From positions 18 to 64,017 of the forward strand of contig JBNJGI010000001.1 in the NCBI GenBank assembly GCA_051819685.1: a DNA stretch of 64,000 nucleotides. The letters run 5' to 3'. Of this stretch, positions 1-27,120 are shown one piece after another. The stretch's first letter is position 1; each line of letters begins with the position of its first letter. The notes below the pieces were generated by a model. The model saw only the letters and a program-made list of their open reading frames with translations. It made no database searches and was not told where the DNA came from. A program made the position numbers and the translations under genes. This stretch comes from Nanobdellota archaeon. GTDB lineage: Archaea; Nanobdellota; Nanobdellia; Woesearchaeales; DATGWN01.

Positions 1-3000
1 AATTAACAAACTCAGAAAAATTAATATTCCTGAAATTCTCAGAAGGCAGATCATTAACAAAATTCGTATTTGAAACAAAATAATAACTTCCATTCGAAAC
101 ATTACCAAACACTGAAACTGAATCAACCGAAAAATTATTCGAAGGAATCATAACTGTTTTTGAAAAATTCCCATAAAACCTAAAATCAGCATTTGAAAAA
201 TTAGAATAAAAACTTGATGAATTAATAACATCAATATAACTTTCCAAATCCAAATCAGAAAAGTTATAATCAGAAACTTCAAGCTCTAAAACAACATCGC
301 TCTCATTCAAAGAAACATTCCCTGACAAATTATCAATACTTGAAAGCAAAGAATAATTTCTAAAATCAATCATATTGGAAGTATTCCAAGAATAATTCCA
401 AGATGGAATGTGAGTTTCTTCAAAAACAAAAACATTACTTGAATTCAAATAAGGCAAAAACCTTGACTCATTAAAATACTCATAATTCAATTCAAAATCA
501 AAAGAATAATTCTTCAAACTTGAATTTTCTTGAACCAAAAACCATTTCTGCAATGAATTCCCTGAAAATGATCCATCATCATAACTCCCATTCAAAGAAA
601 TCAATTCATTCAAAGAATTCCTGAATTCAATAATAGAATAATTATAATAATAAACATCTTCAGTAAAATTAGAAGAACCATTATACACATAAACAGTAGA
701 ATTAGTTTTACTTCCATTAACAACTGAATTCGAAGAATTAAGAGTTGATGAATTCAAAAACAAATCAACAGAAGAATCATCAATTGAAATCGATGAATTA
801 TGCACATCAAAATTAACATTGTCAAAAATACAATTAGTAAATTTAATATCAGGCAAATTAAACATAGTTATATTTGAATTTGAAAAATTAGAATTAATAA
901 TTTCACTTCCTGCACTTGAATTAATAAAAGTCAAATTAGAACTTGCACTAATATTATTCCAATCAACTCTTTTACCAACAAAACTTGAATTTGGAGAAGT
1001 AAAAACAACATCATTATAATCTCCTCCTGTTGTATTAACATAACAACTTAAATTTGATACATAAGGGCAATCTGCTCCTTTCGCTTCTTTTTCTTTATTA
1101 GTTGCATTAGCTAAAATCATTGAATATTTATTCGGTTGAAAGCTAACAACATATTTATCTTCATTTGGAACTTTAAAATTATATGAATTATTTTCATGAA
1201 CTTGATAATATTTCAAATTTTGTTGTGAATCAAAATAATCATTACGATATTTCTGATTTACTTCATAAAAATCTGCTGAGAAGAAATAATTATTATAATT
1301 CCAATCAGAAGATATATTTTCAAATGAAAATGAAACATTATCTGAATATTTTTCAGCAAATATATCCATTGAATAATCAAAGTTATCATCTTTGTAATCG
1401 GTTATGTTGTTCTCGGTATATTGAATGACATAATTGTTACAATTTACTGTATTTTCTAGACATTCGCTTGATATAATTTTTTCATTTTTAGTAATTAAAC
1501 TATTTCTGGGATTTAATTTAGTTGTATTATAAATTTCATTTTGATTATAAATAATGCTTGTTTCAAATATTGATGTCTTAGTTCCAGTTATAAAATTCAT
1601 CTTGTTTTCTCTCATCAAGTCAGTTTGATAATGACTATAAATATTATAAGCATTTGGATTAAATTCAATGCTTTTTTTACTTAAATTTTTTATTTCATAA
1701 AATAATAAGGAATAAAATGTATCAAAACCAGTAGTTTCTTTTTTAATAACACCCAACTCCCACTCTCCATCGGAATCAATGTCAGTGAAAAAAATATCTG
1801 ATGGAGTGTAATCTAGCTCATAACTTTGAAATTCTGCGCTTGAAAGATTGACTGATAGATTGTCTCTTTGAAGAATTCTAATATAATTTTGTGTTTTATC
1901 AAGACAAACTAAATCTTGAATAGTATCTTTATTAAAATCAAAAATTATAAATTCTTCACAATATTCTAAATTATTATTATCAAGATTTAGTGTTCCTGAA
2001 GTTATTTTTTGTGAATCAGAATCCTCAATTAATGCATAATTCCAAGGTTCATCATGACTCCCATTCAGCACAATAATGTCCTTATAGAAATCTCCATCAA
2101 TGTCAAAAGAACCAAAAGAAGCCAAATTATTAAAAGTCCCACTCCAAGACTCAGAAAAACTAAAATCACCATCATAAGTAAGCAATATAAGCTCATCATT
2201 TCCACCAATCAGAATATCGCCATCTCCATCCCAATCGAAATCAGTAATAAAAAACTCATAAGAAGAATCAAAAGAAGAAGAATTAAAAACAGGATCCAAA
2301 GAACCTGAAGAATAAGACTCCAAATCATCACCAGAATAAATCAACAATTCCGAACCTAATATAATAATATCATCAACACCATCTAGATTGAAGTCATAGT
2401 TTCCTAACTTAAATCCATTCATAGAACTCAAATCTGAAAAAGGATTATCATCAGCCAAAGACAACTTCGGCTCATAAGGAGAAACATTCACACACGAACC
2501 ATTATCCATAATACAACCTGAAAAAGAAACATCACCTACATCAGAAAACGAACAATTAGCGCTCCAATTAAAAGTCCCTGATTCAACAAAACTATAATCA
2601 AAAGAAAAAGGCAAAGAAGAAAAAGAAAAATCAGTCTCCTCAAAACTCAAATTACAATCAATAAAATCATGCCTCACACCCTCGCCGTCAACATAATGTA
2701 CATCAGTTATATTATAATCATTCTCAACCGAAACCATAGGAAAAAAAGAAGGATTTAAAGACAAAGCCCAGTGTTCCTGATAACCGATACTTTTACTTTC
2801 AATCGTACCATCAGCACACTCAACTCCGACATAAGAATTATCACACTCATAACAAGTATAATTATAATAGCCATTCGAAAAATCAGGGACTAAAGAAAAA
2901 TCAGCATTATTATCCGTAGAATTATAAAACGAAACATTACAATTTCTGTCTTCTTCTACAAACCCTTCTTCATCTGAAATTGAAAAATTGATATAAAGAT

Positions 3001-3112
3001 CGCTTTCATCCCTGAAAAAATAACCTGAATCCGAAGAAATATCAAAAGAAACATCTTCTGCATAAACAAATGGAATTACAAGTAAAATTAACAATAACCA
3101 ACCTCTTCTCAT
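1..3112 (-). CDS. Giant secreted cell-surface protein, FG-GAP (integrin-like) repeats, N-glycosylation-sequon rich; 5'-partial in window (start codon at 3110-3112, runs off window edge)
   Basis: Reverse-strand translation from cat(3110-3112) gives MRRGWLLLILLVIPFVYA signal peptide; no minus ORF is listed in the track because the frame stays open to position 1. Repeated DxDGDGxxD-type motifs (FDWDGDGDILIGG, FDIDGDFYKDIIVL, TDIDSDGEWELGV) and many NxS/T sequons. Confidence 0.6.
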   Translation of the reverse strand, partial: MRRGWLLLILLVIPFVYAEDVSFDISSDSGYFFRDESDLYINFSISDEEGFVEEDRNCNVSFYNSTDNNADFSLVPDFSNGYYNYTCYECDNSYVGVECADGTIESKSIGYQEHWALSLNPSFFPMVSVENDYNITDVHYVDGEGVRHDFIDCNLSFEETDFSFSSLPFSFDYSFVESGTFNWSANCSFSDVGDVSFSGCIMDNGSCVNVSPYEPKLSLADDNPFSDLSSMNGFKLGNYDFNLDGVDDIIILGSELLIYSGDDLESYSSGSLDPVFNSSSFDSSYEFFITDFDWDGDGDILIGGNDELILLTYDGDFSFSESWSGTFNNLASFGSFDIDGDFYKDIIVLNGSHDEPWNYALIEDSDSQKITSGTLNLDNNNLEYCEEFIIFDFNKDTIQDLVCLDKTQNYIRILQRDNLSVNLSSAEFQSYELDYTPSDIFFTDIDSDGEWELGVIKKETTGFDTFYSLLFYEIKNLSKKSIEFNPNAYNIYSHYQTDLMRENKMNFITGTKTSIFETSIIYNQNEIYNTTKLNPRNSLITKNEKIISSECLENTVNCNNYVIQYTENNITDYKDDNFDYSMDIFAEKYSDNVSFSFENISSDWNYNNYFFSADFYEVNQKYRNDYFDSQQNLKYYQVHENNSYNFKVPNEDKYVVSFQPNKYSMILANATNKEKEAKGADCPYVSNLSCYVNTTGGDYNDVVFTSPNSSFVGKRVDWNNISASSNLTFINSSAGSEIINSNFSNSNITMFNLPDIKFTNCIFDNVNFDVHNSSISIDDSSVDLFLNSSTLNSSNSVVNGSKTNSTVYVYNGSSNFTEDVYYYNYSIIEFRNSLNELISLNGSYDDGSFSGNSLQKWFLVQENSSLKNYSFDFELNYEYFNESRFLPYLNSSNVFVFEETHIPSWNYSWNTSNMIDFRNYSLLSSIDNLSGNVSLNESDVVLELEVSDYNFSDLDLESYIDVINSSSFYSNFSNADFRFYGNFSKTVMIPSNNFSVDSVSVFGNVSNGSYYFVSNTNFVNDLPSENFRNINFSEFVN

Positions 3113-3187
3113 ACAAAATTAATAACCAAAATCATTTATAAACCTTTTGACTCATTCGATGAATCATGGAATAAAGTTAAGGATTTT

Positions 3188-3304
3188 AAGTGATAATATT
3201 GTCTTGAAGTAATTTTTGAATTTGAAGTAAAACGACTTACAGGAGCGTAAATTCAATCAAATTCACCCTGAGGGACGAACATTAGTTCGCAATATCCCTC
3301 ACTT
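3188..3304 (+). repeat. Intergenic repeat element A copy (about 120 bp, TIR-bounded hairpin element)
   Basis: Matches the A consensus (gagtgatgatattgc...cgacttacaggagcgyaaattcaatcaagttcgccc...gttcgcaatatcactcac) seen in at least 9 copies. Confidence 0.7.
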
Positions 3305-3315
3305 TTTTTATTTTA

Positions 3316-3400
3316 AGTGTCAATTATTTGACAAAATTAGTCTATCCAAATTTCTGGGTTTTCTGCAAGGCAATATAAAAATACAACAAATTTCATGTCG
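3316..3400 (-). repeat. Repeat module B (left half of composite element BC), inverted
   Basis: Reverse complement matches tagtaggcgacataagattgttatatttttatattgccttgcagaaaacccagaaatttgg... found at 26731, 35581 and 44031. Confidence 0.65.
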
Positions 3401-3466
3401 TTAACTAAATAAACAAAGGATTTATAAATATAAATTTGATAAAATCTATTAAAAGAGGGGCTATAT

Positions 3467-6400
3467 ATGAATGAAATAAAAAAAACAGGATTATTAGTAT
3501 TAACCTTGATTATAATCCTTTCCCTAACTTCCCATGCACAAATAACTAAAACCTCAGAAATAGGACTACCTTCAAACACGGCAAGAATATTCGATTTTGA
3601 CAATGATGGAGAAAAAGAAGCTCTTGCATTCTCAGATAAAATAGACTCCACACTATCGAAAATATCATATTGGGACTACGATGGAAATTACTATTTAAAA
3701 CAAAACATAACCAAACACAAGCTAAAAAGATGCTCATTAAGCTATCAGGACTATAATCTAGACGGAAAAATAGACATATTCTATACATGCATGGACAACA
3801 AAAGCAAAATAATATCAGCGCTCTATCAATACAATGGCACACAATTTCAACTAAAAAAGAATTTTACTCCATATACGCTTGACAAACAAAAAATAGATGA
3901 AAATGCATACGGAGACACAATATTCTTTGATCTGAACAATGACGGATATTCTGATATAGCTAACGCATTTCTATCAGAAGGTCAAAACCTTTCAATATTT
4001 TATTACAATCAAACATCAAAAGATTTTAATAAAAAGACATCAAGAATACCTCTTATAAACAACACAATCAAAACATTCTTCATCAAAAATATTGACTACG
4101 ACGCAGACGGTGATTTTGACATAATAACTTATTCCTACGATGACGACCACTTTGATTTATTTGAAAATCAAATCTGTAATACAACTTCATGCTCTCAAAA
4201 AGCTTTGTTCAGAAAAGTGAACAACTCTAAATTCATAAACAACACCTTCTTTGAAGAAAAACATATAAAATCATTAAATATATTCGATGAAAATAAAGAT
4301 GGATTTCCTGATCTATATTACATTGTAGATAAAGGAGCTAGAGATGAAGACACAAGAAACCTTGAATTCGGCTATTTCCTTAACAAACACAGAAGAATGA
4401 ACCACACATTCTCGATAACCATCCCTTCAAAATACAACTTCACCTACACACACTCATCAACAAAACTGATAAACGAGTCATGGGAAAATTATTCAGGGAA
4501 ACCTAATCATTATCAAATAACAATAAAAAATTCCAATTACACATTATCAACAGGCAGGACACAGAAAAAAAACATATTCTACAACCTTAACATAACTGCT
4601 GAAGATTATTCAAACGGTGAATATTTTACAAACAACTATGATTACAACTCCCGAAAAGGAAACCTATTATACAGAAAAAAACTGAATCTTACAATACCTA
4701 ACCAATGTTACAACTACACACTACAAGCTGAATCACCTAATCTATTAAGAAGCAATATTTCAAAAAAATACAACTATTCAGACAATCTTGAATACTGCGA
4801 TGGATATGACAATAATTGCGATGGAAAAATAGATGAAGCATTCAACTACACATGGCCGGATGGAAATAAAACATTAGTAAAACAAGGTTTCGATTATGAT
4901 GGAGATGGATTTTTCCCTCAATATTATACAATAAATCATACAATCAATGAAAGTGGAAACATCACACAATACCAAGTAACATTCAATTGCACCCTTAAAA
5001 AGCAAAGGGAAAATACATTATACGATACAAACGATTATGACAAAAACATAATACCTATAGTGAATACTCCTAAAGAAACTATTAAAAGCGACAAGTCTTC
5101 AGGTAATACAGGAAGCATATCGATAAGAGAACCTACTGAAAAAAATAAAACAGAAAAAAAAGATAAAAAAGATGAAAAACCAAAACCTCAAGAAAAGCAA
5201 ACAGAAGAATCATCATCTAAAAAAGACACATTTGCCCAAACAATAACCAAAGAGCTTTCAAACAAAAAATTCAGCCAAAAAACAACTATAGAACATCACA
5301 ATGGGAAAACTGTAGTGACCGAAGAGATCAAGAATATAGACATATATCCATTAAATAAAGTAAAACTAAGAGTTAAGATACCCAAATACATATCAAGATC
5401 TGCTGAATATATAAAATCTCCTATTAATTTCAATATAATACAAATGGACCCTATAATAGATTTCGAAATAGGTAAAATTGACAGCTTCAGGAAAAAAACA
5501 ATACAATACAAATTCGACAAAGAGATATCAGAAGAAGACGCAAAATTCATCCAAAGCACAATCACCTATAAAAATACGACAAAAGAAGAAAAAAGACAAA
5601 TAGAAAAAAACATAAACGATACCAAAAAAACACTTAACATTTCACAAAAAACTAAAGTCAAAGACAACAAAACAATCGTAACTCTGGACCTTAATCCTCA
5701 GAACGAATCTGCAATGTACAATGTATCAGTCTTCCAGCAAATACCCAAATGTCTTATCGAAATAATAAACGATGAAGTAGCTGAATCTGATGTTAAATTC
5801 GATATATTGAACGCAGACCCATTAATAGTATGGCATTTTGACAAACTTATAGACAAGCAGAAAATACAACTAAGCATAAACTCAGTAGCCGACTCAAATT
5901 GTAGCGACATGATAACAACAAAAGCATTAGCAAGGCAGATAGTATTCTCTGAAAAAAAGATAAACTACACAAATGTAGCAATTGGTCTTCTATTCATCCC
6001 TCTCATAGGATTCATATTCATCCTTCTTTCTAACCTTACCAAAAAAGCGCCTGAAAAAACCAACAAAAAAGGCATAATTGGAAAAATAAGAAAATTCTTC
6101 AACAAAATAAATTTCAAGATACATGAACTAATACTCATAGTCCTGATAATACTCAACATACTCGATTTCATAGAGCTCCTTCCAGGTGATATTGATTACT
6201 TTAAAAAAATAATATCATGGATAATACTTGGTTATGTCCTATATGATGTAAGTATAACAGGAATAGTCACCGGAATAAGAGACAAGACACTTGACATAGC
6301 CCTCATAATATCTTTCTTCATGCTGACACTAAAAAACCTTGTCGGATTCGCTAAAGTAGCCATACACGAAGTAAATCTCATGAAAGACCTATACTCATTT

Positions 6401-8335
6401 ATATGGAAACACAATACAATATTTGAAATCAACCTATTCCTTCTCGGAATAGCAGGAATATTTATTTGTTCATACATACTTGCAAAAAAAGAATCAAGAA
6501 ACCCTTCAATAATAGCTACCTTCATAAAAAAACAGACATTCTTCAAAAATTTCACTCTAATCTTCATAGTATTATCAGGATTTTTCATAACAGTCTTTAA
6601 CCTTATGTTTGAATGGCTTGCAATAGCAGTAGATGCCTTCATACTAGTAACGACCATGATATTCATTATATTTATCATAATAAAACACCACAAACATTTT
6701 AAGAAAAAAAGTAAAATAATCGAAGATATATCAGAAAAACCTGAAGAATTCTATGAAAAAGTAATATCCCTGTTCCATTATAGAAAATTCATCCCTCTCG
6801 CATTTTCAGGACTACTAATACTATTCATGCTGACCGAAATAGCCAACTTTCTAATACCTTACCTGACCGGAATATACGACATAATATACTTCGGTAACTT
6901 CACAGAACAACACATACCTATATTCAACATAAAAGAGTTCTTCAACCCTGATGCAAGCCTTTTTGCTCTAAAAGCTGCGCCCTTAGACCTTCCTTACAAA
7001 GCTTTAGTATTCTCTGCATACTGCTTCAATTTCTTTGCACTCATATACCTTCTCATACTACCTGCAAGATACTGGTATAATTACTTCGTCCAAAAAGATA
7101 AACCTATAACAGAAATAAAACACTTCCACCTATCGCCTGGAGAAACAGGATTCTTCTTCGCAAGCCTTATAATATACTTATTAAAACCAGCTTTCGGAAT
7201 ACAGAAACTTAAAACATATGACATAATAGCAAAAGAAAAAACACTAGTAGGGGTTAATATAACAACAAAACTGATAAACCTCGATAACCTTCCTATAATA
7301 CTCCTTGTAGCTGTAATTGGAGGAATAATAATAACATTCCTTGCCTTCAGATTCAAAAAACAATTCACAGACTATCTTCTTTTAGCATCACTCATATTTT
7401 TCATAACCTATATATTTAAATTCTTTTCCACACAACTAAATTATTACACATCAACTATAATATCACTAATCACATCATCAAAAATACCTGCAATTATAAT
7501 AGGAATATTCTTTATACTTCTATTTATAATATCATTCATATCGATATACGGAATTGGATTCGCCACCATGATATACCTTTACTTACCGACATCCTTTCAA
7601 CATTGCTTAACAAAAATGCCTTTCTTCAAAGTAATATTCCACACTCAAAAAATGCATCACATCTCACACAGGAACTCCTCAGGAGACTACATAAAAAATG
7701 CATCTGAATTCATCAAAAAATCCTTAAAATCCAAACATGAATTATATTACATAGTAGAACACCTTGAAAAAAAAGGCTGGTCGATAGAAGAAATTGAAGA
7801 AGCTGTATCAAAAACAGTTAAAGATGAAGAAATATGGAAAGGATTCGATCATTACAAACATTACCATCACAACAAAAAAATAATCCATGCATTAAGAAAA
7901 TACATAAAAAAAGAACATAAAACAAAAAATCTTGAAGAAATAATAGAAAACCTGAAAAAATTAAGACTTGACATAAAAGACATAGTACATGCCATAAGAG
8001 AAACTTCCAAAGAACACCAAATAAATAAACCGTACTTCAAACCTGGTTTCCAGGAAGAATGGACACATCACAAACTTATAAAAATTCTTAAAAAAGCCGA
8101 AAAAGAAGGAATCTCATTCAAGGAACTTCACGGAAGTTTCAAATACATAAAAAGCGAAGACGGAAAAAAACTTGCTGAAGATATAGCTGAAGCTTTATTA
8201 GAAAGACACTCAAAACTATCTGACCTTGCAAAAACCCTCAAGAATTTCAAAGTAAAAGAAGATGATATAAGAGTAGCATTGAAAACAATAAGACCTAAAA
8301 ATGAAAAAGAAGAAGAAATCGTAAGATACTTATAA
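3467..8335 (+). CDS. Giant (1622 aa) surface/membrane protein: signal peptide, FG-GAP-like repeats, CxGxDNNCDGxIDE metal-binding-like motif, N-glycosylation-rich region, K/E/T/S low-complexity linker, about 12 TM helices, His/Lys/Glu-rich cytoplasmic tail
   Basis: ORF track; MNEIKKTGLLVLTLIIILSLTSHA signal peptide; FDFDNDGEKEALAF / DLNNDGYSDIANAF / DYDADGDFDIITYS repeats; long hydrophobic block aa ~835-1330; TATA-like tttataaata about 40 bp upstream with agagggg SD-like. Confidence 0.7.
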   Translation: MNEIKKTGLLVLTLIIILSLTSHAQITKTSEIGLPSNTARIFDFDNDGEKEALAFSDKIDSTLSKISYWDYDGNYYLKQNITKHKLKRCSLSYQDYNLDGKIDIFYTCMDNKSKIISALYQYNGTQFQLKKNFTPYTLDKQKIDENAYGDTIFFDLNNDGYSDIANAFLSEGQNLSIFYYNQTSKDFNKKTSRIPLINNTIKTFFIKNIDYDADGDFDIITYSYDDDHFDLFENQICNTTSCSQKALFRKVNNSKFINNTFFEEKHIKSLNIFDENKDGFPDLYYIVDKGARDEDTRNLEFGYFLNKHRRMNHTFSITIPSKYNFTYTHSSTKLINESWENYSGKPNHYQITIKNSNYTLSTGRTQKKNIFYNLNITAEDYSNGEYFTNNYDYNSRKGNLLYRKKLNLTIPNQCYNYTLQAESPNLLRSNISKKYNYSDNLEYCDGYDNNCDGKIDEAFNYTWPDGNKTLVKQGFDYDGDGFFPQYYTINHTINESGNITQYQVTFNCTLKKQRENTLYDTNDYDKNIIPIVNTPKETIKSDKSSGNTGSISIREPTEKNKTEKKDKKDEKPKPQEKQTEESSSKKDTFAQTITKELSNKKFSQKTTIEHHNGKTVVTEEIKNIDIYPLNKVKLRVKIPKYISRSAEYIKSPINFNIIQMDPIIDFEIGKIDSFRKKTIQYKFDKEISEEDAKFIQSTITYKNTTKEEKRQIEKNINDTKKTLNISQKTKVKDNKTIVTLDLNPQNESAMYNVSVFQQIPKCLIEIINDEVAESDVKFDILNADPLIVWHFDKLIDKQKIQLSINSVADSNCSDMITTKALARQIVFSEKKINYTNVAIGLLFIPLIGFIFILLSNLTKKAPEKTNKKGIIGKIRKFFNKINFKIHELILIVLIILNILDFIELLPGDIDYFKKIISWIILGYVLYDVSITGIVTGIRDKTLDIALIISFFMLTLKNLVGFAKVAIHEVNLMKDLYSFIWKHNTIFEINLFLLGIAGIFICSYILAKKESRNPSIIATFIKKQTFFKNFTLIFIVLSGFFITVFNLMFEWLAIAVDAFILVTTMIFIIFIIIKHHKHFKKKSKIIEDISEKPEEFYEKVISLFHYRKFIPLAFSGLLILFMLTEIANFLIPYLTGIYDIIYFGNFTEQHIPIFNIKEFFNPDASLFALKAAPLDLPYKALVFSAYCFNFFALIYLLILPARYWYNYFVQKDKPITEIKHFHLSPGETGFFFASLIIYLLKPAFGIQKLKTYDIIAKEKTLVGVNITTKLINLDNLPIILLVAVIGGIIITFLAFRFKKQFTDYLLLASLIFFITYIFKFFSTQLNYYTSTIISLITSSKIPAIIIGIFFILLFIISFISIYGIGFATMIYLYLPTSFQHCLTKMPFFKVIFHTQKMHHISHRNSSGDYIKNASEFIKKSLKSKHELYYIVEHLEKKGWSIEEIEEAVSKTVKDEEIWKGFDHYKHYHHNKKIIHALRKYIKKEHKTKNLEEIIENLKKLRLDIKDIVHAIRETSKEHQINKPYFKPGFQEEWTHHKLIKILKKAEKEGISFKELHGSFKYIKSEDGKKLAEDIAEALLERHSKLSDLAKTLKNFKVKEDDIRVALKTIRPKNEKEEEIVRYL

Positions 8336-8377: not shown

Positions 8378-9430
8378 TTAACTTTCTACAGCACTAATCT
8401 CGATAATACCACTATACTCTCCTGAAGGTATGTTCTTAGGAAGATCAAAACTAATACTGACATTATCCATATTACCCTTTGAGATAAACTTCTCACCATA
8501 ACCATCCACAGTTAAATTTGCAAATCCTTCAAAACCTTCAAGAAGAGCACTAAATACAATATTCTTATTAGCTCTAACACCAATTCTAATATTTACAGTT
8601 TCACCAGGAAGAGCTGCATCACCTTCAATACTTTCAATAAAAAAAGGAGCATTAATGATATCTGCTGATATCCAATCACTAACTCCTCCACTCTTATCCA
8701 AAGCTCTTACAGAAATATTCACCTGATCATTATAAGACACATTGAAATTTGTATTATTTCCTTCCATAATAAAATCCTGTATCGCCATAATAGAATCATT
8801 AAAAATATATTCAAAACCATCAATATCATCATTACCATTAACATCATGAGACAATAAACTTAACATAAGAATATTATCTTCAGCCACAGCAGAAAGATTA
8901 CTAACAACAGGAGCTCCATTAAGAACAATTATATCAACAGAATCCTTATCTTCTTTATAAAAAAAAGGATCAGAAGAAACAAAATCAGCTGAATTATTAC
9001 CAGTATCCGAAACTCTTAACAAAGAATAACCATCACTAACAAGACCTACAGGACTCCCTTCGAAAACCTCACTATCACCATATCCTACAATCTCCTCATT
9101 CAACTTTACAGCGCCTTTATTATTCTGTAATTCGAGATCTCTAATAATATCGAAAGACTCATTCTCACCTATAAAAAAACTGCTCCTTGGAAGAACAGTC
9201 CTCTTTTCAAGACTTCCGTTCCAAACAACATTCCATAAATCATCTCCTGTAGAAGTATAAATATTAAAGCCGACAGTGTTCTGAGGCTCATAAAGGGGGT
9301 TATAGATTTCAATAAATTCTTTTCCATCATCACTACTGTCGGCATTATAGAATATCTGTTTTATCTGCAAGGCTTCAGCGCCTGAAGTCGCTATAATAAG
9401 CATCATCATAATAATAATCATCTTTTTCAT
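8378..9430 (-). CDS. Secreted protein with lamin-tail-domain-like motif (EFIEIYNP) and CARDB-like C-terminal domain
   Basis: N-terminal signal peptide MKKMIIIMMMLIIATSGAEA; LTD signature FIEIYNP; ALPGETVNIRIGVRAN CARDB-like. Confidence 0.55.
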   Translation of the reverse strand: MKKMIIIMMMLIIATSGAEALQIKQIFYNADSSDDGKEFIEIYNPLYEPQNTVGFNIYTSTGDDLWNVVWNGSLEKRTVLPRSSFFIGENESFDIIRDLELQNNKGAVKLNEEIVGYGDSEVFEGSPVGLVSDGYSLLRVSDTGNNSADFVSSDPFFYKEDKDSVDIIVLNGAPVVSNLSAVAEDNILMLSLLSHDVNGNDDIDGFEYIFNDSIMAIQDFIMEGNNTNFNVSYNDQVNISVRALDKSGGVSDWISADIINAPFFIESIEGDAALPGETVNIRIGVRANKNIVFSALLEGFEGFANLTVDGYGEKFISKGNMDNVSISFDLPKNIPSGEYSGIIEISAVES

Positions 9431-10578: not shown

Positions 10579-11067
10579 TCAAACACCGATAACATCACTT
10601 TTAGTAACTATACCTGCAATCTTACCTTTATCATTAACCAAAACCATAGAAGAATGCTTTAAAATCTGTATTATAACATCCACATTAGTACTCCTGCATA
10701 CGACAGGTGGAGGACTTTCCATGACATCCTTAACATTACAAGAACCTGAAGTACCTAAAAGACTCCTTTCAGTCACAACACCCATGACCTGATCTTTATC
10801 CTTGACAGGAACCTGTGAAATATTCTGTTTTTTCATAATATCTGTAACCTGATTGCATAAGTCATCCGGCTTCACAAAAAAAATATCTTTTTGCATAATC
10901 TCATCAGCACATAATTTTCTATCGCGAACCTTACCTTCAAGAGCTTCAATAATTTTTATCGCCTTTGAAAAGCCGGGATCTATAAGCCCTGATTCTATCT
11001 TGGCTATAAAAGACTGTGAGACATCCGAAATTTCAGCAAGACCTTTTTGAGTTATTCCAAGATTCAT
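10579..11067 (-). CDS. HTH (XRE-type) + CBS-pair domain regulator; start trimmed to MNLGITQ
   Basis: MNLGITQKGLAEISDVSQSFIAKIESG HTH, followed by two CBS-like segments; divergent to metK. Confidence 0.65.
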   Translation of the reverse strand: MNLGITQKGLAEISDVSQSFIAKIESGLIDPGFSKAIKIIEALEGKVRDRKLCADEIMQKDIFFVKPDDLCNQVTDIMKKQNISQVPVKDKDQVMGVVTERSLLGTSGSCNVKDVMESPPPVVCRSTNVDVIIQILKHSSMVLVNDKGKIAGIVTKSDVIGV

Positions 11068-11194
11068 TCTTATACTTTTTATTTCATAAACATTCTTTAT
11101 CATGAAAATAAAAAATAAACAATCATTAATAAATATTCTCATTGGAATAAAATTTTCAAAATATTTTATAAAAAGAATACGAATTTTTAAAATC

Positions 11195-12310
11195 ATGGCG
11201 AAAAAAATAATAACATCGGAAAGTGTCACAGAAGGTCATCCAGACAAAGTATGTGATAAGATAAGCGATTCATTGCTTGATGCTTACCTTGAACAGGATC
11301 CGGAATCAAGAGTAGCGATAGAAACTTTAGTCAAAGAAAACACAGTCATACTGGCAGGAGAGCTGACAAGCAAAGGAAGTGTAAACATCCAGGAAACAGT
11401 AAAAAAAACATTAAAAGATATCGGATATGACAACGAAGAATTTGGGATGGATCTTAATCTCATCGAAGTAATTTCCAAAATCAACAGGCAAAGCCCTGAT
11501 ATAGCTCAAGGAGTAAATGAAGACGATCATGAACAAGGAGCTGGAGATCAAGGGCTTATGTATGGTTATGCTTCTAACGAAACCGATAACTACATGCCTT
11601 TACCCATTGACTTGGCGCATAAGCTTACAAAAAGATTAAGTGAGGCAAGAAAATCAAAAGAAATAGAAAATTTAGGACCTGATGGAAAAAGTCAAGTATC
11701 TGTAGAATATGAAGATGGAATACCCAAAAGAATTGTAAATGTAGTAATAGCACAGCAACATACAGATGATATAAATGAAGATAAATTAAAACAAGAAATA
11801 AAAGAAAAAATAATAAAACCTGTATGCAATAAATACATAGACGAAAATACAAAATATTATATAAATGGTACAGGAAAATTCATAATAGGAGGACCTGCAG
11901 CTGATGCAGGATTGACAGGAAGAAAAATTATCGTCGATACATATGGTGGAATAGGTCGTCACGGTGGTGGTGCATTTTCAGGAAAAGACCCTTCTAAAGT
12001 TGACAGAAGCGCTGCTTACATGGCAAGACACATAGCTAAAAACATAGTAGCAAAAGGATATGCTGATAGATGTGAACTACAAGTAGCTTATTGCATAGGA
12101 GTTGCAGAACCAATGAGTATTGCGATAAACACTTTCGGAACCTCTAAAATTCCAGGCAAAGATATAGAAAAATGGGTAAGAGATAATTTCAGTCTTAAAC
12201 CGGCAGAAATAATAAAATATCTTGAACTAAAAAAACCAGTATTCTATGAAACAGCCGCTTATGGCCATTTCGGAAGAGAATCTTTCAAATGGGAAAAAAT
12301 AATAGAATAG
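11195..12310 (+). CDS. metK: S-adenosylmethionine synthetase, bacterial/eukaryotic-type (MetK)
   Basis: MAKKIITSESVTEGHPDKVCDKISD, GGGAFSGKDPSKVDRSAAY; TATA-like tattttataaaaag about 25 bp upstream of the ATG at 11195. Confidence 0.9.
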   Translation: MAKKIITSESVTEGHPDKVCDKISDSLLDAYLEQDPESRVAIETLVKENTVILAGELTSKGSVNIQETVKKTLKDIGYDNEEFGMDLNLIEVISKINRQSPDIAQGVNEDDHEQGAGDQGLMYGYASNETDNYMPLPIDLAHKLTKRLSEARKSKEIENLGPDGKSQVSVEYEDGIPKRIVNVVIAQQHTDDINEDKLKQEIKEKIIKPVCNKYIDENTKYYINGTGKFIIGGPAADAGLTGRKIIVDTYGGIGRHGGGAFSGKDPSKVDRSAAYMARHIAKNIVAKGYADRCELQVAYCIGVAEPMSIAINTFGTSKIPGKDIEKWVRDNFSLKPAEIIKYLELKKPVFYETAAYGHFGRESFKWEKIIE

Positions 12311-12324
12311 GCACAATCAAAAAA

Positions 12325-12449
12325 GTGAGTGATATTGCGAACAAATGTTCGTTCCTCCGGGCGAACTTGATTGAATTTACGCTCCTGTAAGTCGTTTTAC
12401 TCCTTACCGCAAATTCAAAAATTACTTCAAGGCAATATCATCACTCATT
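12325..12449 (-). repeat. Repeat element A, most complete (canonical) copy
   Basis: 125 bp between convergent metK and nucleotidyltransferase genes; terminal inverted repeats gtgagtgatattgc / gcaatatcatcactca; internal complementarity (ttgaatttgcg / cgtaaattcaa; gtaag / cttac). Confidence 0.75.
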
Positions 12450-12497
12450 TTATTGCATGTGCCATAGAATAAAAAAATACATAAAAAAGCAAAGTTA

Positions 12498-15263: not shown

Positions 15264-15398
15264 ATGGATCCTACGGAAATAGATTTCGGAAAGACCCGGT
15301 ATCTTACGATAGGGATGGCGGTTGTATTAGTGTTGCTTATACTCATAGTAATAATGGTAATTATGAGTAAACATGCTTCACTCGCATTTGGACAATGA
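15264..15398 (+). CDS. Small (44 aa) single-TM protein, stop overlaps next start
   Basis: MDPTEIDFGKTRYLTIGMAVVLVLLILIVIMVIM; below the ORF-track size cut-off; ATGA overlap with 15395. Confidence 0.4.
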   Translation: MDPTEIDFGKTRYLTIGMAVVLVLLILIVIMVIMSKHASLAFGQ

Positions 15399-16579
15399 AA
15401 AAAATTAAATTTTCAAAGAAAGGAGCTCTAGGTATAGTAATGATGCTTTTCCTTGCTCTTGTAGCTTTTCTTATACTTTTCACTTTCGTAGGAAGATTTC
15501 TTAAAGTAGCAGATGAAGGTTTGCAGAGTGAAATATGCAGAGCGAATATCGCTCTTTTAAATTCAGAAATCAAAGAAAAATCTGATGAAAATTCTGGCAT
15601 TATTGCAAGTACTTGGAATTTAGTTAAAGATAATAATGCCCGAGCAATGCTTAAAAATCCATTATGTACTTCTTTAGTTGAAGTATTTGATTATAGAGAT
15701 GTTAAAGATAAAAACCAATTAAGAAAAAAAGTAGCAACTGATATTGGCGAAATGATGCAAAACTGCTGGAAAACATTTGGTGAAGGAAAACAAGGAAACA
15801 CATTCGGACAGGAAAAAGGTTGGGCAGGAAGAGGAGATAAAAATAACTATTATTTTTCATGCTACAAATTCAAATTTAAAATGAAAGATTCATCTGATAG
15901 CATTTCAATGGAATATTTAAATGGAGATAAAGGACTTCTCTGGAAATATAATGTAGATGGAAAACCCTTATTCAATGAAAATGGAAGACTTTTAGAAAAC
16001 AATAAACTAAAAGATGAAGATAAAATGATTGAAGCTACAATAAAACAATCTTCATTGATGATGCTATATGAAGAATACTATAATAATCCTTCTAGTGATA
16101 AAATACCTTACCTGGGATACATAACTTGGGATGGATATGGATATTATGAATTTGTTAAAAAAACTGCTTCCGGACTGAAAATTGATTCAGCTGGTGAAAA
16201 TGTAGCAAAAGGCGCGATATCAGGAACAACTGCTGGAGTAATTGGAGCTGTAATTGGTACAGGTTTATGTTTTTATTTAGGACCCGGAGCTGTTGGTTGT
16301 GCTGCGTTAGGTAGTGCTATTGCAGGTGGTGCTGCTGCAGGTGGCGCTTCTCTTGCATCAAAAGGTTTAATTGATTCTTTTCAAAATAAAAATGTACCTG
16401 TAATGGCTGATGAATACAAATTAAAAGAAATATATTCTGATCAATACTATGAAGTAAGATACTATTCCCCTTATATAAAAAATATAGATGAAGAAAGCTG
16501 GGTTCTTAACAACATAAAAATCGTACCAATAAACGAAGAAAGTAAAGACAATAAAGAAATTCCGGGAGGAATATCATAA
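15395..16579 (+). CDS. Pilin-like N-terminus protein (394 aa) with Gly/Ala-rich glycine-zipper hydrophobic segment
   Basis: MKKIKFSKKGALGIVMMLFLALVAFLIL; GAISGTTAGVIGAVIGTGLCFYLGPGAVGCAALGSAIAGGAAAGGASLASKG. Confidence 0.65.
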   Translation: MKKIKFSKKGALGIVMMLFLALVAFLILFTFVGRFLKVADEGLQSEICRANIALLNSEIKEKSDENSGIIASTWNLVKDNNARAMLKNPLCTSLVEVFDYRDVKDKNQLRKKVATDIGEMMQNCWKTFGEGKQGNTFGQEKGWAGRGDKNNYYFSCYKFKFKMKDSSDSISMEYLNGDKGLLWKYNVDGKPLFNENGRLLENNKLKDEDKMIEATIKQSSLMMLYEEYYNNPSSDKIPYLGYITWDGYGYYEFVKKTASGLKIDSAGENVAKGAISGTTAGVIGAVIGTGLCFYLGPGAVGCAALGSAIAGGAAAGGASLASKGLIDSFQNKNVPVMADEYKLKEIYSDQYYEVRYYSPYIKNIDEESWVLNNIKIVPINEESKDNKEIPGGIS

Positions 16580-16722
16580 TGAAAAACAAAAAAGCAATGG
16601 AAATGAAAATACTAATGACTTGGCTATTCATAATACTTGCAGCATTGGTCTTTTTAGTTCTAATCGGAATATTTTCAAAAAAAGGATTTGAATTTTTAGA
16701 TGTAATAAACAATATTTTTTAA
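16579..16722 (+). CDS. Small (47 aa) pilin-like N-terminal protein
   Basis: MKNKKAMEMKILMTWLFIILAALVFLVLIGIF; TAATG overlap with previous stop. Confidence 0.45.
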   Translation: MKNKKAMEMKILMTWLFIILAALVFLVLIGIFSKKGFEFLDVINNIF

Positions 16723-16723
16723 G

Positions 16724-18430
16724 ATGAAAAATAAACAAAAAAAAGGAAGCTTCGCACTAATGAAATTAATATCTTACATAATACCTATAATTGTATTCTT
16801 AGTCTTACTAGCTTTTATTTTTCAAGATGATCTTAAAGCTGGAATGATAAATTTTGCAGATAAAAAACAACAAGAAATGGAAGATGCAGGAGAACTTTAT
16901 GAAAACTATGGTGAAGGAAGAAGGAAAACAGGAAATAATGAAATGAAAATACATACGATGAATATAGCTCAGATAATAAGTTCTGCTGAATCTGAAAAAA
17001 AAACTTGCATTATAGATCTATCGTCAGAACCTTACATAAAAAAACCTTATGAAGTATTTGGAAAAACATCAGAAAAAAGTCATTATTCTTATCGGTGTCA
17101 AAACAATATGGAAAACTGCAATTCTAAAATATGTAATGCACAAGGAAACTGCGCTGAATATGAACTGGAAGGCATCAGTAAAATAGTATATTATAGGGAT
17201 GATAAAGGAATGGCTAAGAAAAAAGGATATTCATTCGTTATGGATAAAGTAAAAAACTACATGATAAAAAATGGGCATATTAATGGAATATACTTCCTTA
17301 AAAGCAAAAATAAAAATGAAATTGAGGGAGGTCTTGTAGATTACAAGATAGATATATATTCATCTGAAAACATAGGAAGTGATCTTGAGCTTACAAATAA
17401 AATACAAGATAAAGAACTTAAAAAAAGGTTCTATACAGAACATGCTATAAAATTCTATAATATTCTTATCCTTCTTGACGGCCATGTAAATCTTCCGGGA
17501 ATTTTAGGAGGGTCAGATTTAAAAGAAGAAGACGCTGATTTTTCTGGAATTGAAGTTTGCGAACAAAAAAACAGCAATTTAATTAGTTTCACTGAAAAAG
17601 ATGATAAAAAAGTGAAAAAATATCTTTCTTTAATGGCTGAATCTATAAATAACGCTAAAAAAGAAAACTGCATAATAAAACTAAAATCTGATTTTTCTCT
17701 TGAAGAAGAAAAAGAATACTATTTTGGATTTTACAAAGAAAACAATAAAAACTTCCTTAAAGATGATATAAAGACATTAAACTATTATGATTTTGAAGAA
17801 AATCCTGATTTAGATTCAAGTAGTTCATTCGAAGAATTAAGAACAGGTTATAATTCATTAGAAGAAGAAGGAGAAAAATGGAAAAGAGCTATGATGATAT
17901 CAGAACATTTTAAAAATAAAGGTGATAAAGAATTAGCAAAAAAATGGAAACAAGAAGCAATGGAAATCAAAAATCCGTTCCTTACTAATTATGATATTAA
18001 CTCTGATACTAAAGAAAACCTTATAGGAGAAGTAGAAAGTTTTGATATAGAAAAACCGATAGATGATAAATATAAAAAATTCGGAGTAATTTATGATCGG
18101 GATTTTGTTTTTAATCACATAGAAGAAATTGGAAAAATAATAAAAGCAATAAAAGATAAAGATATAATCATAACATCTCTTACATTGCCTCCTTCAAAAG
18201 AGCTTAAAGTATCTGGTTATGATTCTATTTTTTTCAATATTATAAAAGAAAACGGTATGTTTGTAAAAGATAAAAATTATTATGCCGGTTTTGAAGGAGA
18301 CTTATCCGAAACTATAAAAGTTTCAAAAAAATATCTTATAAAAGCCGGTAACAATATTTATTTTTATAGTTCAAAAGGAAATGAAATTGATATAAATGAG
18401 ATAGATAAAGAATATATTTGTGAGGGATAA
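16724..18430 (+). CDS. Large (568 aa) secreted/anchored protein with class-III-like N-terminus and Cys-rich segment
   Basis: MKNKQKKGSFALMKLISYIIPIIVFLVLLAF; CQNNMENCNSKICNAQGNCAEYE. Confidence 0.6.
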   Translation: MKNKQKKGSFALMKLISYIIPIIVFLVLLAFIFQDDLKAGMINFADKKQQEMEDAGELYENYGEGRRKTGNNEMKIHTMNIAQIISSAESEKKTCIIDLSSEPYIKKPYEVFGKTSEKSHYSYRCQNNMENCNSKICNAQGNCAEYELEGISKIVYYRDDKGMAKKKGYSFVMDKVKNYMIKNGHINGIYFLKSKNKNEIEGGLVDYKIDIYSSENIGSDLELTNKIQDKELKKRFYTEHAIKFYNILILLDGHVNLPGILGGSDLKEEDADFSGIEVCEQKNSNLISFTEKDDKKVKKYLSLMAESINNAKKENCIIKLKSDFSLEEEKEYYFGFYKENNKNFLKDDIKTLNYYDFEENPDLDSSSSFEELRTGYNSLEEEGEKWKRAMMISEHFKNKGDKELAKKWKQEAMEIKNPFLTNYDINSDTKENLIGEVESFDIEKPIDDKYKKFGVIYDRDFVFNHIEEIGKIIKAIKDKDIIITSLTLPPSKELKVSGYDSIFFNIIKENGMFVKDKNYYAGFEGDLSETIKVSKKYLIKAGNNIYFYSSKGNEIDINEIDKEYICEG

Positions 18431-18432
18431 AA

Positions 18433-18708
18433 ATGAAAAATAAAAAATCAATGCAAATGTCATTACAGACAGTCATAGTGGGAGTTATTTTATTATTAGT
18501 ATTGGCAGTGATAATATACATATTCACCTCAAGGATGGGCGAACAGAATGAAGCAGTAGGGGATTTGCAAGGAAGTGTAACAGATAAATGTATTGATGAA
18601 GATGGAAACATAAAAGAAGATTGCGAATACACAAAAAATCTTAATGAAGGTTATATAATACCTTTAATACCTTTTATAAGAAAAAAATATTTTTTAAAAA
18701 GAACATGA
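18433..18708 (+). CDS. Pilin-like small protein (91 aa)
   Basis: MKNKKSMQMSLQTVIVGVILLLVLAVIIYIF, same N-terminal subfamily as 14737/14991. Confidence 0.65.
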   Translation: MKNKKSMQMSLQTVIVGVILLLVLAVIIYIFTSRMGEQNEAVGDLQGSVTDKCIDEDGNIKEDCEYTKNLNEGYIIPLIPFIRKKYFLKRT

Positions 18709-20202: not shown

Positions 20203-20203
20203 A

Positions 20204-26730: not shown

Positions 26731-26815
26731 TAGTAGGCGACATAAGATTGTTATATTTTTATATTGCCTTGCAGAAAACCCAGAAATTTGGCTAGACAAA
26801 TTCTGTCAAATATTG
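26731..26815 (+). repeat. Repeat module B
   Basis: tagtaggcgacataagattgttatatttttatattgccttgcagaaaacccagaaatttggctagacaaattctgtcaaatatt. Confidence 0.7.
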
Positions 26816-26826
26816 AAACTTAAAAT

Positions 26827-27114: not shown

Positions 27115-27120
27115 CTTTTA

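What the first reader, a model, noticed from the sequence alone, without database searches (positions are those of the whole stretch)
1..8335. Divergent pair of giant integrin-like (FG-GAP) glycoprotein-candidate surface proteins; one fuses the propeller to a ~12-TM domain and a His-rich cytoplasmic tail
Both genes (1..3112- partial, over 1037 aa; 3467..8335+, 1622 aa) have signal peptides and several DxDxDG calcium-binding FG-GAP blades. Both are very dense in N-x-S/T sequons. The 1622-aa protein also has a CxGxDNNCDGxIDE metal-binding-like motif and a K/E/S/T linker. Unusually, it has a large polytopic membrane domain followed by an about 300-aa cytoplasmic tail with HYKHYHH-type histidine clusters. 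That layout suggests an adhesin coupled to a transport or signalling membrane module. Divergent arrangement with a shared A+B repeat region suggests co-regulation.
Basis: partly seen in the sequence, partly recalled or inferred. Interest (0 to 1): 0.6.

Follow-up and report, generated by a model that had tools for sequence, protein, structure and literature searches.

The report
Archaeal adhesin fused to unknown 12-helix membrane core
A tiny symbiotic (DPANN) archaeon encodes a giant, heavily sugar-tagged surface protein whose integrin-like head is fused to a 12-helix membrane module from a large family that nobody has described. That module may be the membrane base of these cells' attachment machinery.

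Summary
Gene 3467..8335(+) is one real 1622-aa gene of a Nanobdellota/Woesearchaeota-type MAG. Its parts, in order:
- signal peptide
- five-loop FG-GAP propeller (Pfam above cut-off)
- MopE-like motif
- K/E/S/T linker
- conserved ~210-aa juxtamembrane (JM) domain
- TM1
- 12-helix core
- ~250-aa His-rich cytoplasmic tail with three-helix "GW" modules

Ten genomes carry the same fusion, so it is not a frameshift artefact.

The main new result concerns the core. It belongs to a large un-annotated family (494 clusters at 50% identity) found mostly as free-standing ~490-aa proteins. It has no Pfam, NCBIfam or PDB sequence match. A confident AlphaFold model (pLDDT 88.5) has no Foldseek match in the PDB. 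In 12 of 33 loci a free-standing core sits next to a gene for a JM-domain surface protein, so the window's protein looks like a fused "client plus base".

The divergent, anchorless partner (1..3112-) accompanies the fusion in four genomes, which supports a functional pair. The "A+B repeat" is a window-wide intergenic repeat and says nothing specific about co-regulation.

The function is inferred, not shown. I favour an adhesion complex on a dedicated membrane base. Transporter, processing-enzyme and S-layer readings remain open.

The parts
3467..8335 (+). Whole 1622-aa gene (NCBI hypothetical protein ACQER9_00010, Nanobdellota archaeon MAG): surface head + JM domain + 13 TM + cytoplasmic tail
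   Evidence: ORF. Identical database entry P0001 and full-length orthologues P0003 and P0004.
3467..3538 (+). Sec-type signal peptide (residues 1-24)
   Evidence: Sequence; hydrophobic segment 6-24.
3554..4366 (+). FG-GAP beta-propeller region with five Ca-type DxDxDG loops (residues 43, 95, 155, 210, 274)
   Evidence: PF13517 at 34.3 bits, cut-off 26.9. Loop positions. Direct-repeat family D1.
4367..4771 (+). Sequon-rich beta-rich spacer after the propeller (residues about 301-435); conserved in the family, no Pfam match
   Evidence: Conserved columns; no Pfam hit.
4772..4837 (+). MopE-like Cys/Asp motif CDGYDNNCDGKIDE (residues 436-457)
   Evidence: PF11617 at 25.3 bits, cut-off 27. Matched in 8 of 24 relatives, best E 3.9e-10.
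5057..5266 (+). K/E/S/T-rich low-complexity linker (residues about 531-600)
   Evidence: Read from the translation. Variable in length among orthologues.
5339..5977 (+). Juxtamembrane (JM) domain (residues 625-837) with signature IPKC...DPLIVWHFD...C and a short coiled-coil-like stretch
   Evidence: JM profile at 290 bits. Alignment A10. No Pfam or PDB relative.
5978..6040 (+). TM1 (residues 838-858): takes the chain from outside to the cytoplasm, followed by a Lys-rich loop
   Evidence: Hydropathy. Lys-rich loop read.
6092..7585 (+). 12-helix membrane core (residues 876-1373), a member of a large un-annotated family; most conserved motif FNLMFEWLAIAVD (1045-1057)
   Evidence: Family profile at 427.7 bits. 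Exhaustive HMMER search gave 494 clusters. AlphaFold pLDDT 88.5, pTM 0.88, 12 long helices. No PDB fold match.
7586..8332 (+). Cytoplasmic tail (residues 1374-1622). His clusters at nt 7640-7672 and 7847-7876; 'GW' three-helix modules at nt 7691-7810 and 7883-7999
   Evidence: Sequence. Module profile hits. Sequon-poor and Lys/His-rich.
1..3112 (-). Partner gene, 5' 1037 codons (runs off the window). Signal peptide, N-terminal beta-rich region, FG-GAP propeller (nt about 1733-2425), then a long N-x-S/T-rich repetitive region. Full-length orthologues have no membrane anchor.
   Evidence: Orthologues: L001 30% identity, E 8e-80; L003 38%, E 8e-86; L013. C-termini without a hydrophobic segment.
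3113..3466 (.). Divergent spacer. TATA-like TTTATAAA at 3135-3142 (23-30 nt from the minus-strand ATG) and TTTATAAATA at 3421-3430, with AGAGGGG at 3454-3460 before the plus-strand ATG. Dispersed repeat elements A (3186-3308) and B (3306-3400).
   Evidence: Sequence. Repeat copies. No Rfam match.

Best explanation
The 1622-aa gene encodes a modular cell-surface protein of a Woesearchaeota-type DPANN archaeon. It has three functional parts:
- A variable, N-glycosylated, Ca-type FG-GAP adhesive head.
- A conserved juxtamembrane (JM) stalk domain carrying that head.
- A permanently attached membrane base: TM1 plus a 12-helix core of a previously undescribed family, ending in a cytoplasmic His-rich tail built from small three-helix modules.

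In most relatives the core is a separate ~490-aa protein, encoded next to a single-pass or pilin-like surface protein that carries the JM domain. So the core is a dedicated membrane partner (docking base) for JM-domain surface proteins. In this window, client and base are fused.

The divergently encoded giant FG-GAP glycoprotein has a signal peptide but no anchor. It is a conserved companion, most likely held on the cell by the fusion protein. Together they would form an adhesion complex for cell-cell (host) contact, with the core and tail linking that contact to the membrane and cytoplasm.

Shown: the anatomy, the conservation of the fusion, the family and its fused/split alternation, the gene pairing, and the lack of known relatives.
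Inferred: physical JM-core and head-partner contacts, adhesion, and any transduction.
For: - One gene: orthologues of 1624 and 1626 aa align end to end at 42% and 35% identity. The JM and core profiles hit a single ORF in ten loci.
- Core family: 494 clusters at 50% identity with E<=1e-3, and 317 with E<=1e-30. Among the best 150, 74 are 430-530 aa and 33 exceed 1300 aa.
- Core structure: AlphaFold pLDDT 88.5 with 12 long helices. With TM1 this gives N-out/C-in, consistent with the sequon-rich head and the Lys/His-rich, sequon-poor tail.
- Fused/split alternation: a JM-domain gene is the immediate neighbour of a free-standing core in 12 of 33 loci. Example: L004, whose 1069-aa neighbour is signal peptide + PKD/Big_9 domains + JM + TM + GW module.
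- Heads vary across fused members (FG-GAP, cadherin-like, Big_9, CARDB, Hint, LamG) while JM, core and tail stay constant.
- Two JM cysteines are lost together in three proteins, as expected for an extracellular disulfide.
- Partner gene beside the fusion in four genomes: divergent twice, one intervening gene once, 4-nt overlap once. Its full-length orthologues end without any hydrophobic anchor.
- Distribution: 36 GTDB species genomes. The titles that name a lineage below 'archaeon' read Woesearchaeota, Nanoarchaeia or Nanobdellota. This fits a lineage known for many unannotated membrane and extracellular families (PMC8204110).
Against: - No experiment or structure shows JM-core or head-partner contact.
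- In 19 of 33 free-core loci no JM gene lies within the 15 kb held. Several of the adjacent cases are syntenic relatives, so they are not independent.
- A nearly invariant His of the family (TM7, LVLHLLTD) is Phe in the window's protein and in P0003. The fused subfamily may therefore have lost an activity that the free cores have.
- Conserved acidic residues in the TM5/TM6 hairpin and the His-rich tail would also suit an ion or metal transporter.
- The recurrent SppA-type peptidase next to free cores would also suit a protein-processing role.
Confidence: 0.5

Rival explanations
1. The 12-helix core is a solute, ion or metal transporter or channel. The fused adhesive head only localises or gates it at the contact site with a host cell, for example for uptake of host-derived compounds that DPANN cells cannot make.
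For: - About 490 aa, 12 TM, N-in/C-in is the commonest format of secondary transporters.
- Nearly invariant E, W and D in the TM5/TM6 hairpin, and an HxxxD-like LVLHLLTD in TM7 of most members.
- His-rich cytoplasmic segments recall the His-rich regions of metal transporters (my own knowledge).
- Most family members are free-standing.
Against: - No Pfam, NCBIfam or PDB sequence match, even with a 75-sequence profile.
- Foldseek finds no transporter fold: best E 0.55, TM-score at most 0.26.
- No internal N-half/C-half repeat.
- Many conserved positions lie in outer loops rather than mid-membrane (GH.P, LYF, GVDIxT).
- The TM7 His is Phe in this very protein.
- No substrate-binding or ATPase partner in the neighbourhoods.
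Confidence: 0.18
2. The core is a membrane-embedded processing or attachment enzyme, sortase-like in logic. Its clients are the JM-domain proteins. In the window's gene, enzyme and client are fused, and the head may be cleaved or re-anchored in cis.
For: - Polytopic protein genomically paired with surface proteins that share a conserved domain, then a TM helix, then a basic cytoplasmic stretch. This is the pattern of dedicated sorting-enzyme/target pairs (my own knowledge of exosortase/archaeosortase systems).
- An S49/SppA signal-peptide-peptidase-like gene occurs in 10 of 40 loci, and is directly upstream on the same strand in 5.
- A prepilin peptidase gene lies within 4 kb in 5 loci, and some clients have pilin-type signal peptides.
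- Conserved D/E/H/Y residues face the outside.
Against: - No match to exosortase/archaeosortase, rhomboid, CPBP, S2P, GT-C or O-antigen-ligase families in Pfam.
- No match to solved structures.
- No invariant Cys, Ser or His set. Only W1050 is invariant in 75 sequences.
- The conserved DPLIVWHFD motif lies about 50 residues before the TM helix, not next to it.
- A stable enzyme-substrate fusion conserved in ten genomes is unusual.
- The peptidase neighbours cluster in related, syntenic loci.
Confidence: 0.17
3. The two giant glycoproteins are the two components of this organism's S-layer: an anchorless canopy protein and a membrane-anchored stalk protein. The polytopic block is simply an unusually large anchor.
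For: - An adjacent, conserved gene pair: one anchorless, very sequon-rich protein of about 1270 aa, and one membrane-anchored protein with a coiled-coil-like stalk segment. This resembles the SlaA/SlaB logic of Sulfolobales (my own knowledge).
- The repeat element B upstream carries a TATA-like box shared by several genes.
Against: - FG-GAP propellers and MopE motifs are adhesin-type rather than lattice-type domains.
- Fused relatives carry quite different heads.
- Free-standing cores exist without any giant partner.
- One genome has both a fused and a free core side by side.
- There are no expression data.
Confidence: 0.1
4. Artefact: the long ORF is a mis-assembled or frameshift-joined product of two genes, and the FG-GAP calls are compositional noise in an AT-rich genome.
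For: In most relatives the core is indeed a separate gene. The partner's FG-GAP score and the MopE score are just under the Pfam cut-offs.
Against: - The same uninterrupted architecture occurs in ten loci from independent assemblies, at 35-71% identity.
- TM1 and the loop joining head and core are themselves conserved.
- FG-GAP_3 is above cut-off here and reaches E 1.4e-39 in relatives.
- The loop spacing is regular.
Confidence: 0.02

Closest known systems
FG-GAP / integrin-alpha-type beta-propeller surface proteins (Pfam PF13517, PF01839)
   Same: Repeated ~55-60-aa blades with DxDxDG..D/E Ca-type loops. Extracellular, signal-peptide-dependent, adhesin-like context.
   Different: Only five recognisable loops. 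No thigh or calf domains, and no single-pass GFFKR-type anchor. Followed by an unrelated JM domain, 13 TM helices and a 250-aa tail. Archaeal N-glycosylation sequons at 4-5 per 100 aa.
Adhesion GPCRs (variable adhesion domains + GAIN juxtamembrane domain + 7TM + tail)
   Same: Design logic only. Interchangeable adhesive heads, one conserved juxtamembrane domain, a polytopic membrane module and a cytoplasmic tail. Fused and two-chain (split) forms both exist.
   Different: No sequence or fold relationship detected. 1+12 helices rather than 7. No GPS/GAIN match. Archaeal. No G-protein system. Signalling is not shown.
Exosortase/archaeosortase with PEP-CTERM or PGF-CTERM clients
   Same: A polytopic membrane protein genomically coupled to surface proteins that share a conserved C-terminal region, TM helix and basic tail.
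   Different: No homology. No conserved Cys/Arg/His triad. The conserved motif is ~50 residues from the helix. Client and partner are often fused into one stable protein.
SlaA/SlaB S-layer pair of Sulfolobales
   Same: Adjacent genes for a giant anchorless glycoprotein and a membrane-anchored, stalk-bearing partner. Both heavily N-glycosylated.
   Different: Different folds (propellers, not Ig-like lattice domains). Anchor of 13 helices plus a large tail. Heads vary among relatives.
MopE-type 'putative metal-binding motif' (PF11617)
   Same: The CxGxDNNCDGxIDE Cys/Asp motif.
   Different: A single copy, scoring just below the Pfam cut-off in this protein. Metal binding is untested.

Membership tests
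FG-GAP_3 (PF13517) repeat proteins | Profile score above Pfam's gathering threshold (26.9 bits) in the 1622-aa protein | tested here: met
   34.3 bits, E 3.6e-08, two stretches. 16 of 24 fused relatives match, best E 1.4e-39.
FG-GAP_3 (PF13517) repeat proteins | Profile score above threshold in the minus-strand partner | tested here: inconclusive
   25.8 bits against a cut-off of 26.9. Five regularly spaced D-rich loops. The orthologue in L001 carries only a 'faint' precomputed hit.
Integrin alpha subunit | Seven-bladed propeller followed by thigh/calf domains, a single TM helix and a short GFFKR-type tail | tested here: not met
   Five recognisable loops. No Integrin_alpha2 or other integrin domains in Pfam. 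13 TM helices and a 250-aa tail.
Cu-binding_MopE motif (PF11617) | Profile score above 27 bits | tested here: inconclusive
   25.3 bits at residues 436-457. 8 of 24 relatives match, best E 3.9e-10.
Any curated membrane transporter, channel or enzyme family (Pfam-A, NCBIfam) | Significant profile match of the 12-helix core | tested here: not met
   No hit for the window protein. No hit for nine relatives. No family matched by more than 2 of 75 core sequences at E<=1.
Any protein with a solved structure | Sequence-profile or fold similarity of the core to a PDB chain | tested here: not met
Archaeosortase/exosortase system | Exosortase-family membrane protein with conserved Cys/Arg/His, and clients with the motif directly before a C-terminal TM helix | tested here: not met
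   No Pfam match. Only W1050 is invariant, with no conserved Cys. DPLIVWHFD lies ~50 residues before TM1.
Secondary transporters with inverted or tandem 6+6 repeat | Detectable internal duplication of the two halves | tested here: not met
   hhalign of the N-half profile against the C-half profile gave probability 0.1%.
Archaeal N-glycoproteins | N-x-S/T sequons enriched on the extracellular part; glycans attached by AglB | tested here: inconclusive
   Enrichment is strong: z 7.6 in both proteins, and depleted in the core and tail. Actual glycosylation and the presence of AglB in this genome were not tested.

The most novel reading that the evidence does not exclude
JM domain, 12-helix core and GW-module tail together define an undescribed, Woesearchaeota-wide class of modular surface receptor or conduit. 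Interchangeable adhesive heads dock on, or are fused to, a membrane machine with a new fold. That machine couples contact with a host cell to the symbiont's cytoplasm, either by signalling or by moving host-derived material. If so, this would be the first candidate molecular hardware for host interaction in this very large, uncultured archaeal group.
Probability: 0.3. Interest if true: 0.85.

Novelty: new variant of a known kind. Interest (0 to 1): 0.62.

Why it matters
Woesearchaeota and their relatives are among the most abundant uncultured archaea. They are thought to live attached to other cells, but no attachment or exchange machinery has been identified for them.

This locus points to a concrete, widespread and testable candidate. 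It is a membrane protein family of hundreds of sequence clusters with no annotation. Its predicted structure is confident yet matches nothing solved. It is repeatedly fused to, or encoded beside, adhesin-type surface proteins.

The work also yields three new domain definitions (JM domain, 12-helix core, GW module) that would improve annotation of thousands of 'hypothetical' DPANN proteins. The natural fused/split pairs are ideal material for co-evolution analysis and complex prediction.

Tried and rejected
- AlphaFold on the whole C-terminal 803 aa with only 4 sequences gave pLDDT 50 and was discarded. It was repeated on the core alone with 75 sequences.
- Profile searches of the PDB gave nothing usable:
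  - core: 0 hits
  - GW module: best E 0.024, to a designed three-helix miniprotein
  - JM domain: best E 0.2
  - head: best E 0.14
- Pfam at permissive thresholds gave only scattered single hits on the core set, including one 60KD_IMP hit at E 3.7e-4 in 1 of 75 members, and on the JM set. I treated these as noise.
- The internal-repeat test of the core was negative.
- The word-indexed protein search with the JM alignment returned only 5 small proteins and missed the known members. It cannot be used to count clients.
It was repeated with 8 sequences.
- Rfam on the spacer found no match. The sigma-70/terminator scan was uninformative for an archaeon.
- Literature searches for DPANN + FG-GAP returned 0 papers. 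Searches on Woesearchaeota surface or membrane proteins found no description of this family. The relevant supplementary table of PMC8204110 is not held.
- I considered GT-C glycosyltransferases, because of the GDxD in the first outer loop. I rejected them because no Pfam or Foldseek match to PglB, AglB, ArnT or PMT appeared.
Full report
**Where the window comes from.** The window is about 30% G+C. It carries an intron-containing tRNA (130 nt; found by Rfam but not by ARAGORN). It also carries archaeal/eukaryotic-type genes such as a YGR210-like GTPase. The 1622-aa product is identical to NCBI 'MAG: hypothetical protein ACQER9_00010 [Nanobdellota archaeon]' on a 70-kb contig. The organism is therefore a DPANN archaeon of the Woesearchaeota/Nanoarchaeia type.

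**Checking the observation.**
- FG-GAP_3 scores above Pfam's threshold in the long protein (34.3 against 26.9 bits). It scores just below in the partner (25.8 bits). The MopE-like motif is just below its threshold (25.3 against 27 bits).
- Ca-type DxDxDG..D/E loops recur every 52-64 residues, five times in each protein.
- N-x-S/T sequons are 2.3-2.8 times commoner than composition predicts. The head has 35 observed against 12.5 +/- 3.0 expected. The partner has 56 against 23.9 +/- 4.2. Both give z 7.6.
- The membrane block, the tail and the cytoplasmic proteins of the window carry about 0-1.5 sequons per 100 aa.
- Hydropathy gives one helix at 838-858, followed by a Lys-rich loop and a hydrophobic block that ends at 1373. 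The AlphaFold model of residues 870-1385 resolves that block into 12 long helices.
- The protein therefore has 13 TM helices. The head is outside and the 250-aa Lys/His-rich tail is inside.

**Is it one gene?** Yes.
- Two full-length orthologues (1624 and 1626 aa; 42% and 35% identity) and a 71%-identical fragment align across head, linker, membrane block and tail.
- Profiles for the juxtamembrane region and for the core hit a single ORF in ten independent loci: the window, L001, L003, L010-L014, L028 and L030.

**What the membrane block is.**
- An exhaustive HMMER search with a profile of the C-terminal 800 aa found 494 clusters at 50% identity (317 with E<=1e-30).
- The matched region in most hits is profile positions ~100-590. 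That is residues ~876-1373, the 12 helices without TM1 and without the tail.
- Among the best 150 hits, 74 are free-standing proteins of 430-530 aa. About 30 more carry an insert in one outer loop. 33 are long fusions of 1382-5101 aa.
- No member matches Pfam or NCBIfam.
- A 75-sequence profile matches no PDB sequence, even at E<=10.
- With those 75 sequences AlphaFold gives a confident model (pLDDT 88.5, pTM 0.88). Foldseek finds nothing comparable in the PDB (best E 0.55, TM-score at most 0.26) or in BFVD.
- There is no detectable internal duplication.
- Nearly invariant residues include E1049-W1050 and D1056 in the tight TM5/TM6 hairpin (motif FNLMFEWLAIAVD), D943, an Asn in TM8, and several outer-loop positions (LYF, GH.P, KPxF, GVDIxT).
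- A His in TM7 that is conserved in over 90% of members is Phe in this protein and in P0003.

**What travels with the core.**
- In all fused members the core is preceded by the same ~210-aa juxtamembrane (JM) domain (signature ...EIPKC...DPLIVWHFD...C...), then TM1.
- In 13 of 36 fused members the TM1-core loop also holds a ~40-aa three-helix 'GW' module (xxLxxxIxxxxxxGHxxxxIxExLxxxGWxxxxIxxA). The same module recurs one to three times in the tails, and twice in the window's tail.
- The heads differ among members: FG-GAP, MopE, cadherin-like, Big_9, CARDB, Hint, LamG.
- Neither the JM domain nor the GW module has a Pfam or PDB relative.
- The two JM cysteines are replaced together in three proteins, which suggests a disulfide.

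**The split arrangement.**
- Where the core is free-standing, a gene with the JM domain is its immediate neighbour in 12 of 33 loci, and lies nearby in two more.
- One kind of neighbour is 'signal peptide + adhesin domains + JM + one TM + GW module'. An example is L004:9458-12667, tail to tail with the core. This is the window's protein cut in two.
- The other kind has a pilin-type (class III) signal peptide with a JM-like domain in mid-protein.
- In the genome of orthologue P0004, the gene directly after the fusion is itself a free-standing core paralogue.
- This fused/split alternation is the strongest evidence that JM-bearing surface proteins and the core work as one unit.

**The divergent partner.**
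- Its orthologues lie beside the fusion gene in four genomes:
  - divergent in the window and in L001 (30% identity over 1106 aa, E 8e-80)
  - with one methyltransferase gene in between in L003 (38% identity, E 8e-86)
  - directly downstream with a 4-nt overlap in L013
- Two full-length orthologues end in ...FYYxGDIxxxGxxxxIIN with no hydrophobic anchor.
- A secreted, anchorless giant glycoprotein that keeps company with a membrane-anchored one is most simply explained by the first being held by the second. That step is inference.

**The 'A+B repeat'.**
- The 354-bp spacer does contain two repeat elements.
- Element A (3186-3308) is ~125 nt with a 15-bp terminal inverted repeat and a T-run. 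It has four further full copies and several partial ones.
- Element B (3306-3400) ends in a TATA-like GCAATATAAAAATA. It has three further full copies and one partial copy. Each points towards a gene start 45-280 nt away.
- The genes downstream of the B copies are:
  - a response-regulator gene (with a histidine-kinase gene immediately downstream on the same strand)
  - a TraB-family gene
  - a 1186-aa unknown gene
  - a small ORF starting at 31211
- The elements are a genome-wide feature: MITE-like, multicopy small RNA, or portable promoter. They are not evidence of pair-specific co-regulation.
- The functional link between the pair rests instead on conserved synteny.

**Other context.** An S49/SppA-type peptidase gene recurs in 10 of 40 loci and is directly upstream on the same strand in five. 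A prepilin peptidase lies within 4 kb in five. The other recurrent neighbours are housekeeping genes that reflect synteny among related genomes.

**Distribution.**
- A scan of one genome per GTDB species found 36 loci.
- The informative titles read Woesearchaeota, Nanoarchaeia or Nanobdellota.
- Fourteen titles from an automated TPA set read 'uncultured Methanosarcinales archaeon'.
- These share architecture and synteny with Woesearchaeota-titled loci (for example L044 with L045) and overlap them in G+C. I regard those titles as unreliable, but I could not verify this.
- Castelle et al. 2021 reported that Pacearchaeota/Woesearchaeota-specific families are mostly unannotated. They also reported that many DPANN lineage-specific families are predicted to be membrane-bound or extracellular (PMC8204110). 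I found no paper describing this family.

**Interpretation.**
- I am confident in four points:
  - the anatomy of the protein
  - that the fusion is real
  - that an un-annotated core family exists, with no detectable known relative at the depth I could test
  - that the core is genetically coupled to JM-domain surface proteins and, in this subfamily, to the anchorless partner
- Likely but inferred: this is an adhesion complex in which the core is a dedicated membrane base.
- Open: what the base does. I weigh the options as follows:
  - anchoring/transduction 0.5
  - transport 0.18
  - client processing 0.17
  - S-layer 0.1
- The design resembles adhesion GPCRs or integrins in logic only. No membership in those families is claimed, and the tests for it failed.

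**Verdict.** The finding is real and more interesting than a 'giant FG-GAP protein'. The head is ordinary. The juxtamembrane domain, the 12-helix core and the tail modules are undescribed and widespread in a major uncultured archaeal lineage.

Noticed in passing
window 3186-3308, 12316-12450(-), 28127-28256, 44115-44246, 58379-58506; partial copies at 27088-27125, 35756-35790, 37737-37800: Dispersed intergenic element A, ~125-135 nt at 80-90% identity. It has a 15-bp terminal inverted repeat (GAGTGATGATATTGC...GCAATATCACTC) followed by a T-run. It could be a MITE or a multicopy structured small RNA. There is no Rfam match, and only 2 compensatory pairs among 5 copies.
   Followed up: partly
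window 3306-3400, 26738-26842(-), 35588-35675(-), 44005-44095; partial copy at 31255-31310(-): Dispersed element B, ~85 nt at >90% identity, ending in the TATA-like GCAATATAAAAATA. Each copy points at a gene start 45-280 nt downstream: the fusion gene, a response-regulator gene, a TraB-family gene, a 1186-aa unknown gene and a small ORF. It looks like a portable promoter module.
   Followed up: partly
window 15395-22010 (+): A run of at least five genes whose products begin MKxxKKG followed by a hydrophobic stretch. These look like archaeal class III (type IV pilin-like) signal peptides. None has a Pfam match. Probably a pilus or pilin cluster about 7 kb from the finding.
   Followed up: no
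window 8378-9430 (-): The convergent downstream gene encodes a 350-aa secreted protein with a lamin-tail-domain-like start (IKQIFYNADSSDDGKEFIEIYNP) and 10 sequons. It has no Pfam hit at 1e-3. It is another surface protein next to the pair.
   Followed up: no
window 44375-51490 (+): Three consecutive large ORFs (1186, 490 and 701 aa) have no Pfam match. They lie in a stretch of very strong AT skew (0.36-0.48) and are preceded by elements B and A.
   Followed up: no
window 37933-38062 (+): A tRNA gene of 130 nt, presumably intron-containing. Rfam found it (47 bits) but ARAGORN missed it.
   Followed up: no
window 11102-12310 (+): A bacterial-type three-domain S-adenosylmethionine synthetase (MetK) in an archaeal genome. 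The listed ORF overlaps the start of the divergent CBS/HTH gene (10579-11229), so the true start is probably further downstream.
   Followed up: no
L001:14884-16608(-) and L002:8538-10262(-): In the genome of orthologue P0004, the gene directly after the fused gene is a free-standing paralogue of the 12-helix core (574 aa, with an outer-loop insert). A site-2 protease (Peptidase_M50) gene lies two genes further on.
   Followed up: partly
L024:4252-6771(-) and one fused relative in alignment A4: Some JM-domain partners and fusions carry a Hint/intein-like module (CLLEGSEV...HNDHPILV; Pfam Hint, PT-HINT and Vint hits). This hints at autoproteolytic processing in part of the family.
   Followed up: no
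L010, L012-L015, L023, L025, L027, L035, L038, L039, L041, L042, L044: Fourteen GTDB-representative MAG records titled 'uncultured Methanosarcinales archaeon' (automated TPA assemblies) carry this Woesearchaeota-type gene family with the same synteny. The titles are probably wrong taxonomic labels.
   Followed up: partly
P0014 (2759 aa): One fused family member is reported on a 6.15-Mb contig. That is far larger than any DPANN genome. It may be a concatenated MAG record or a different host lineage.
   Followed up: no
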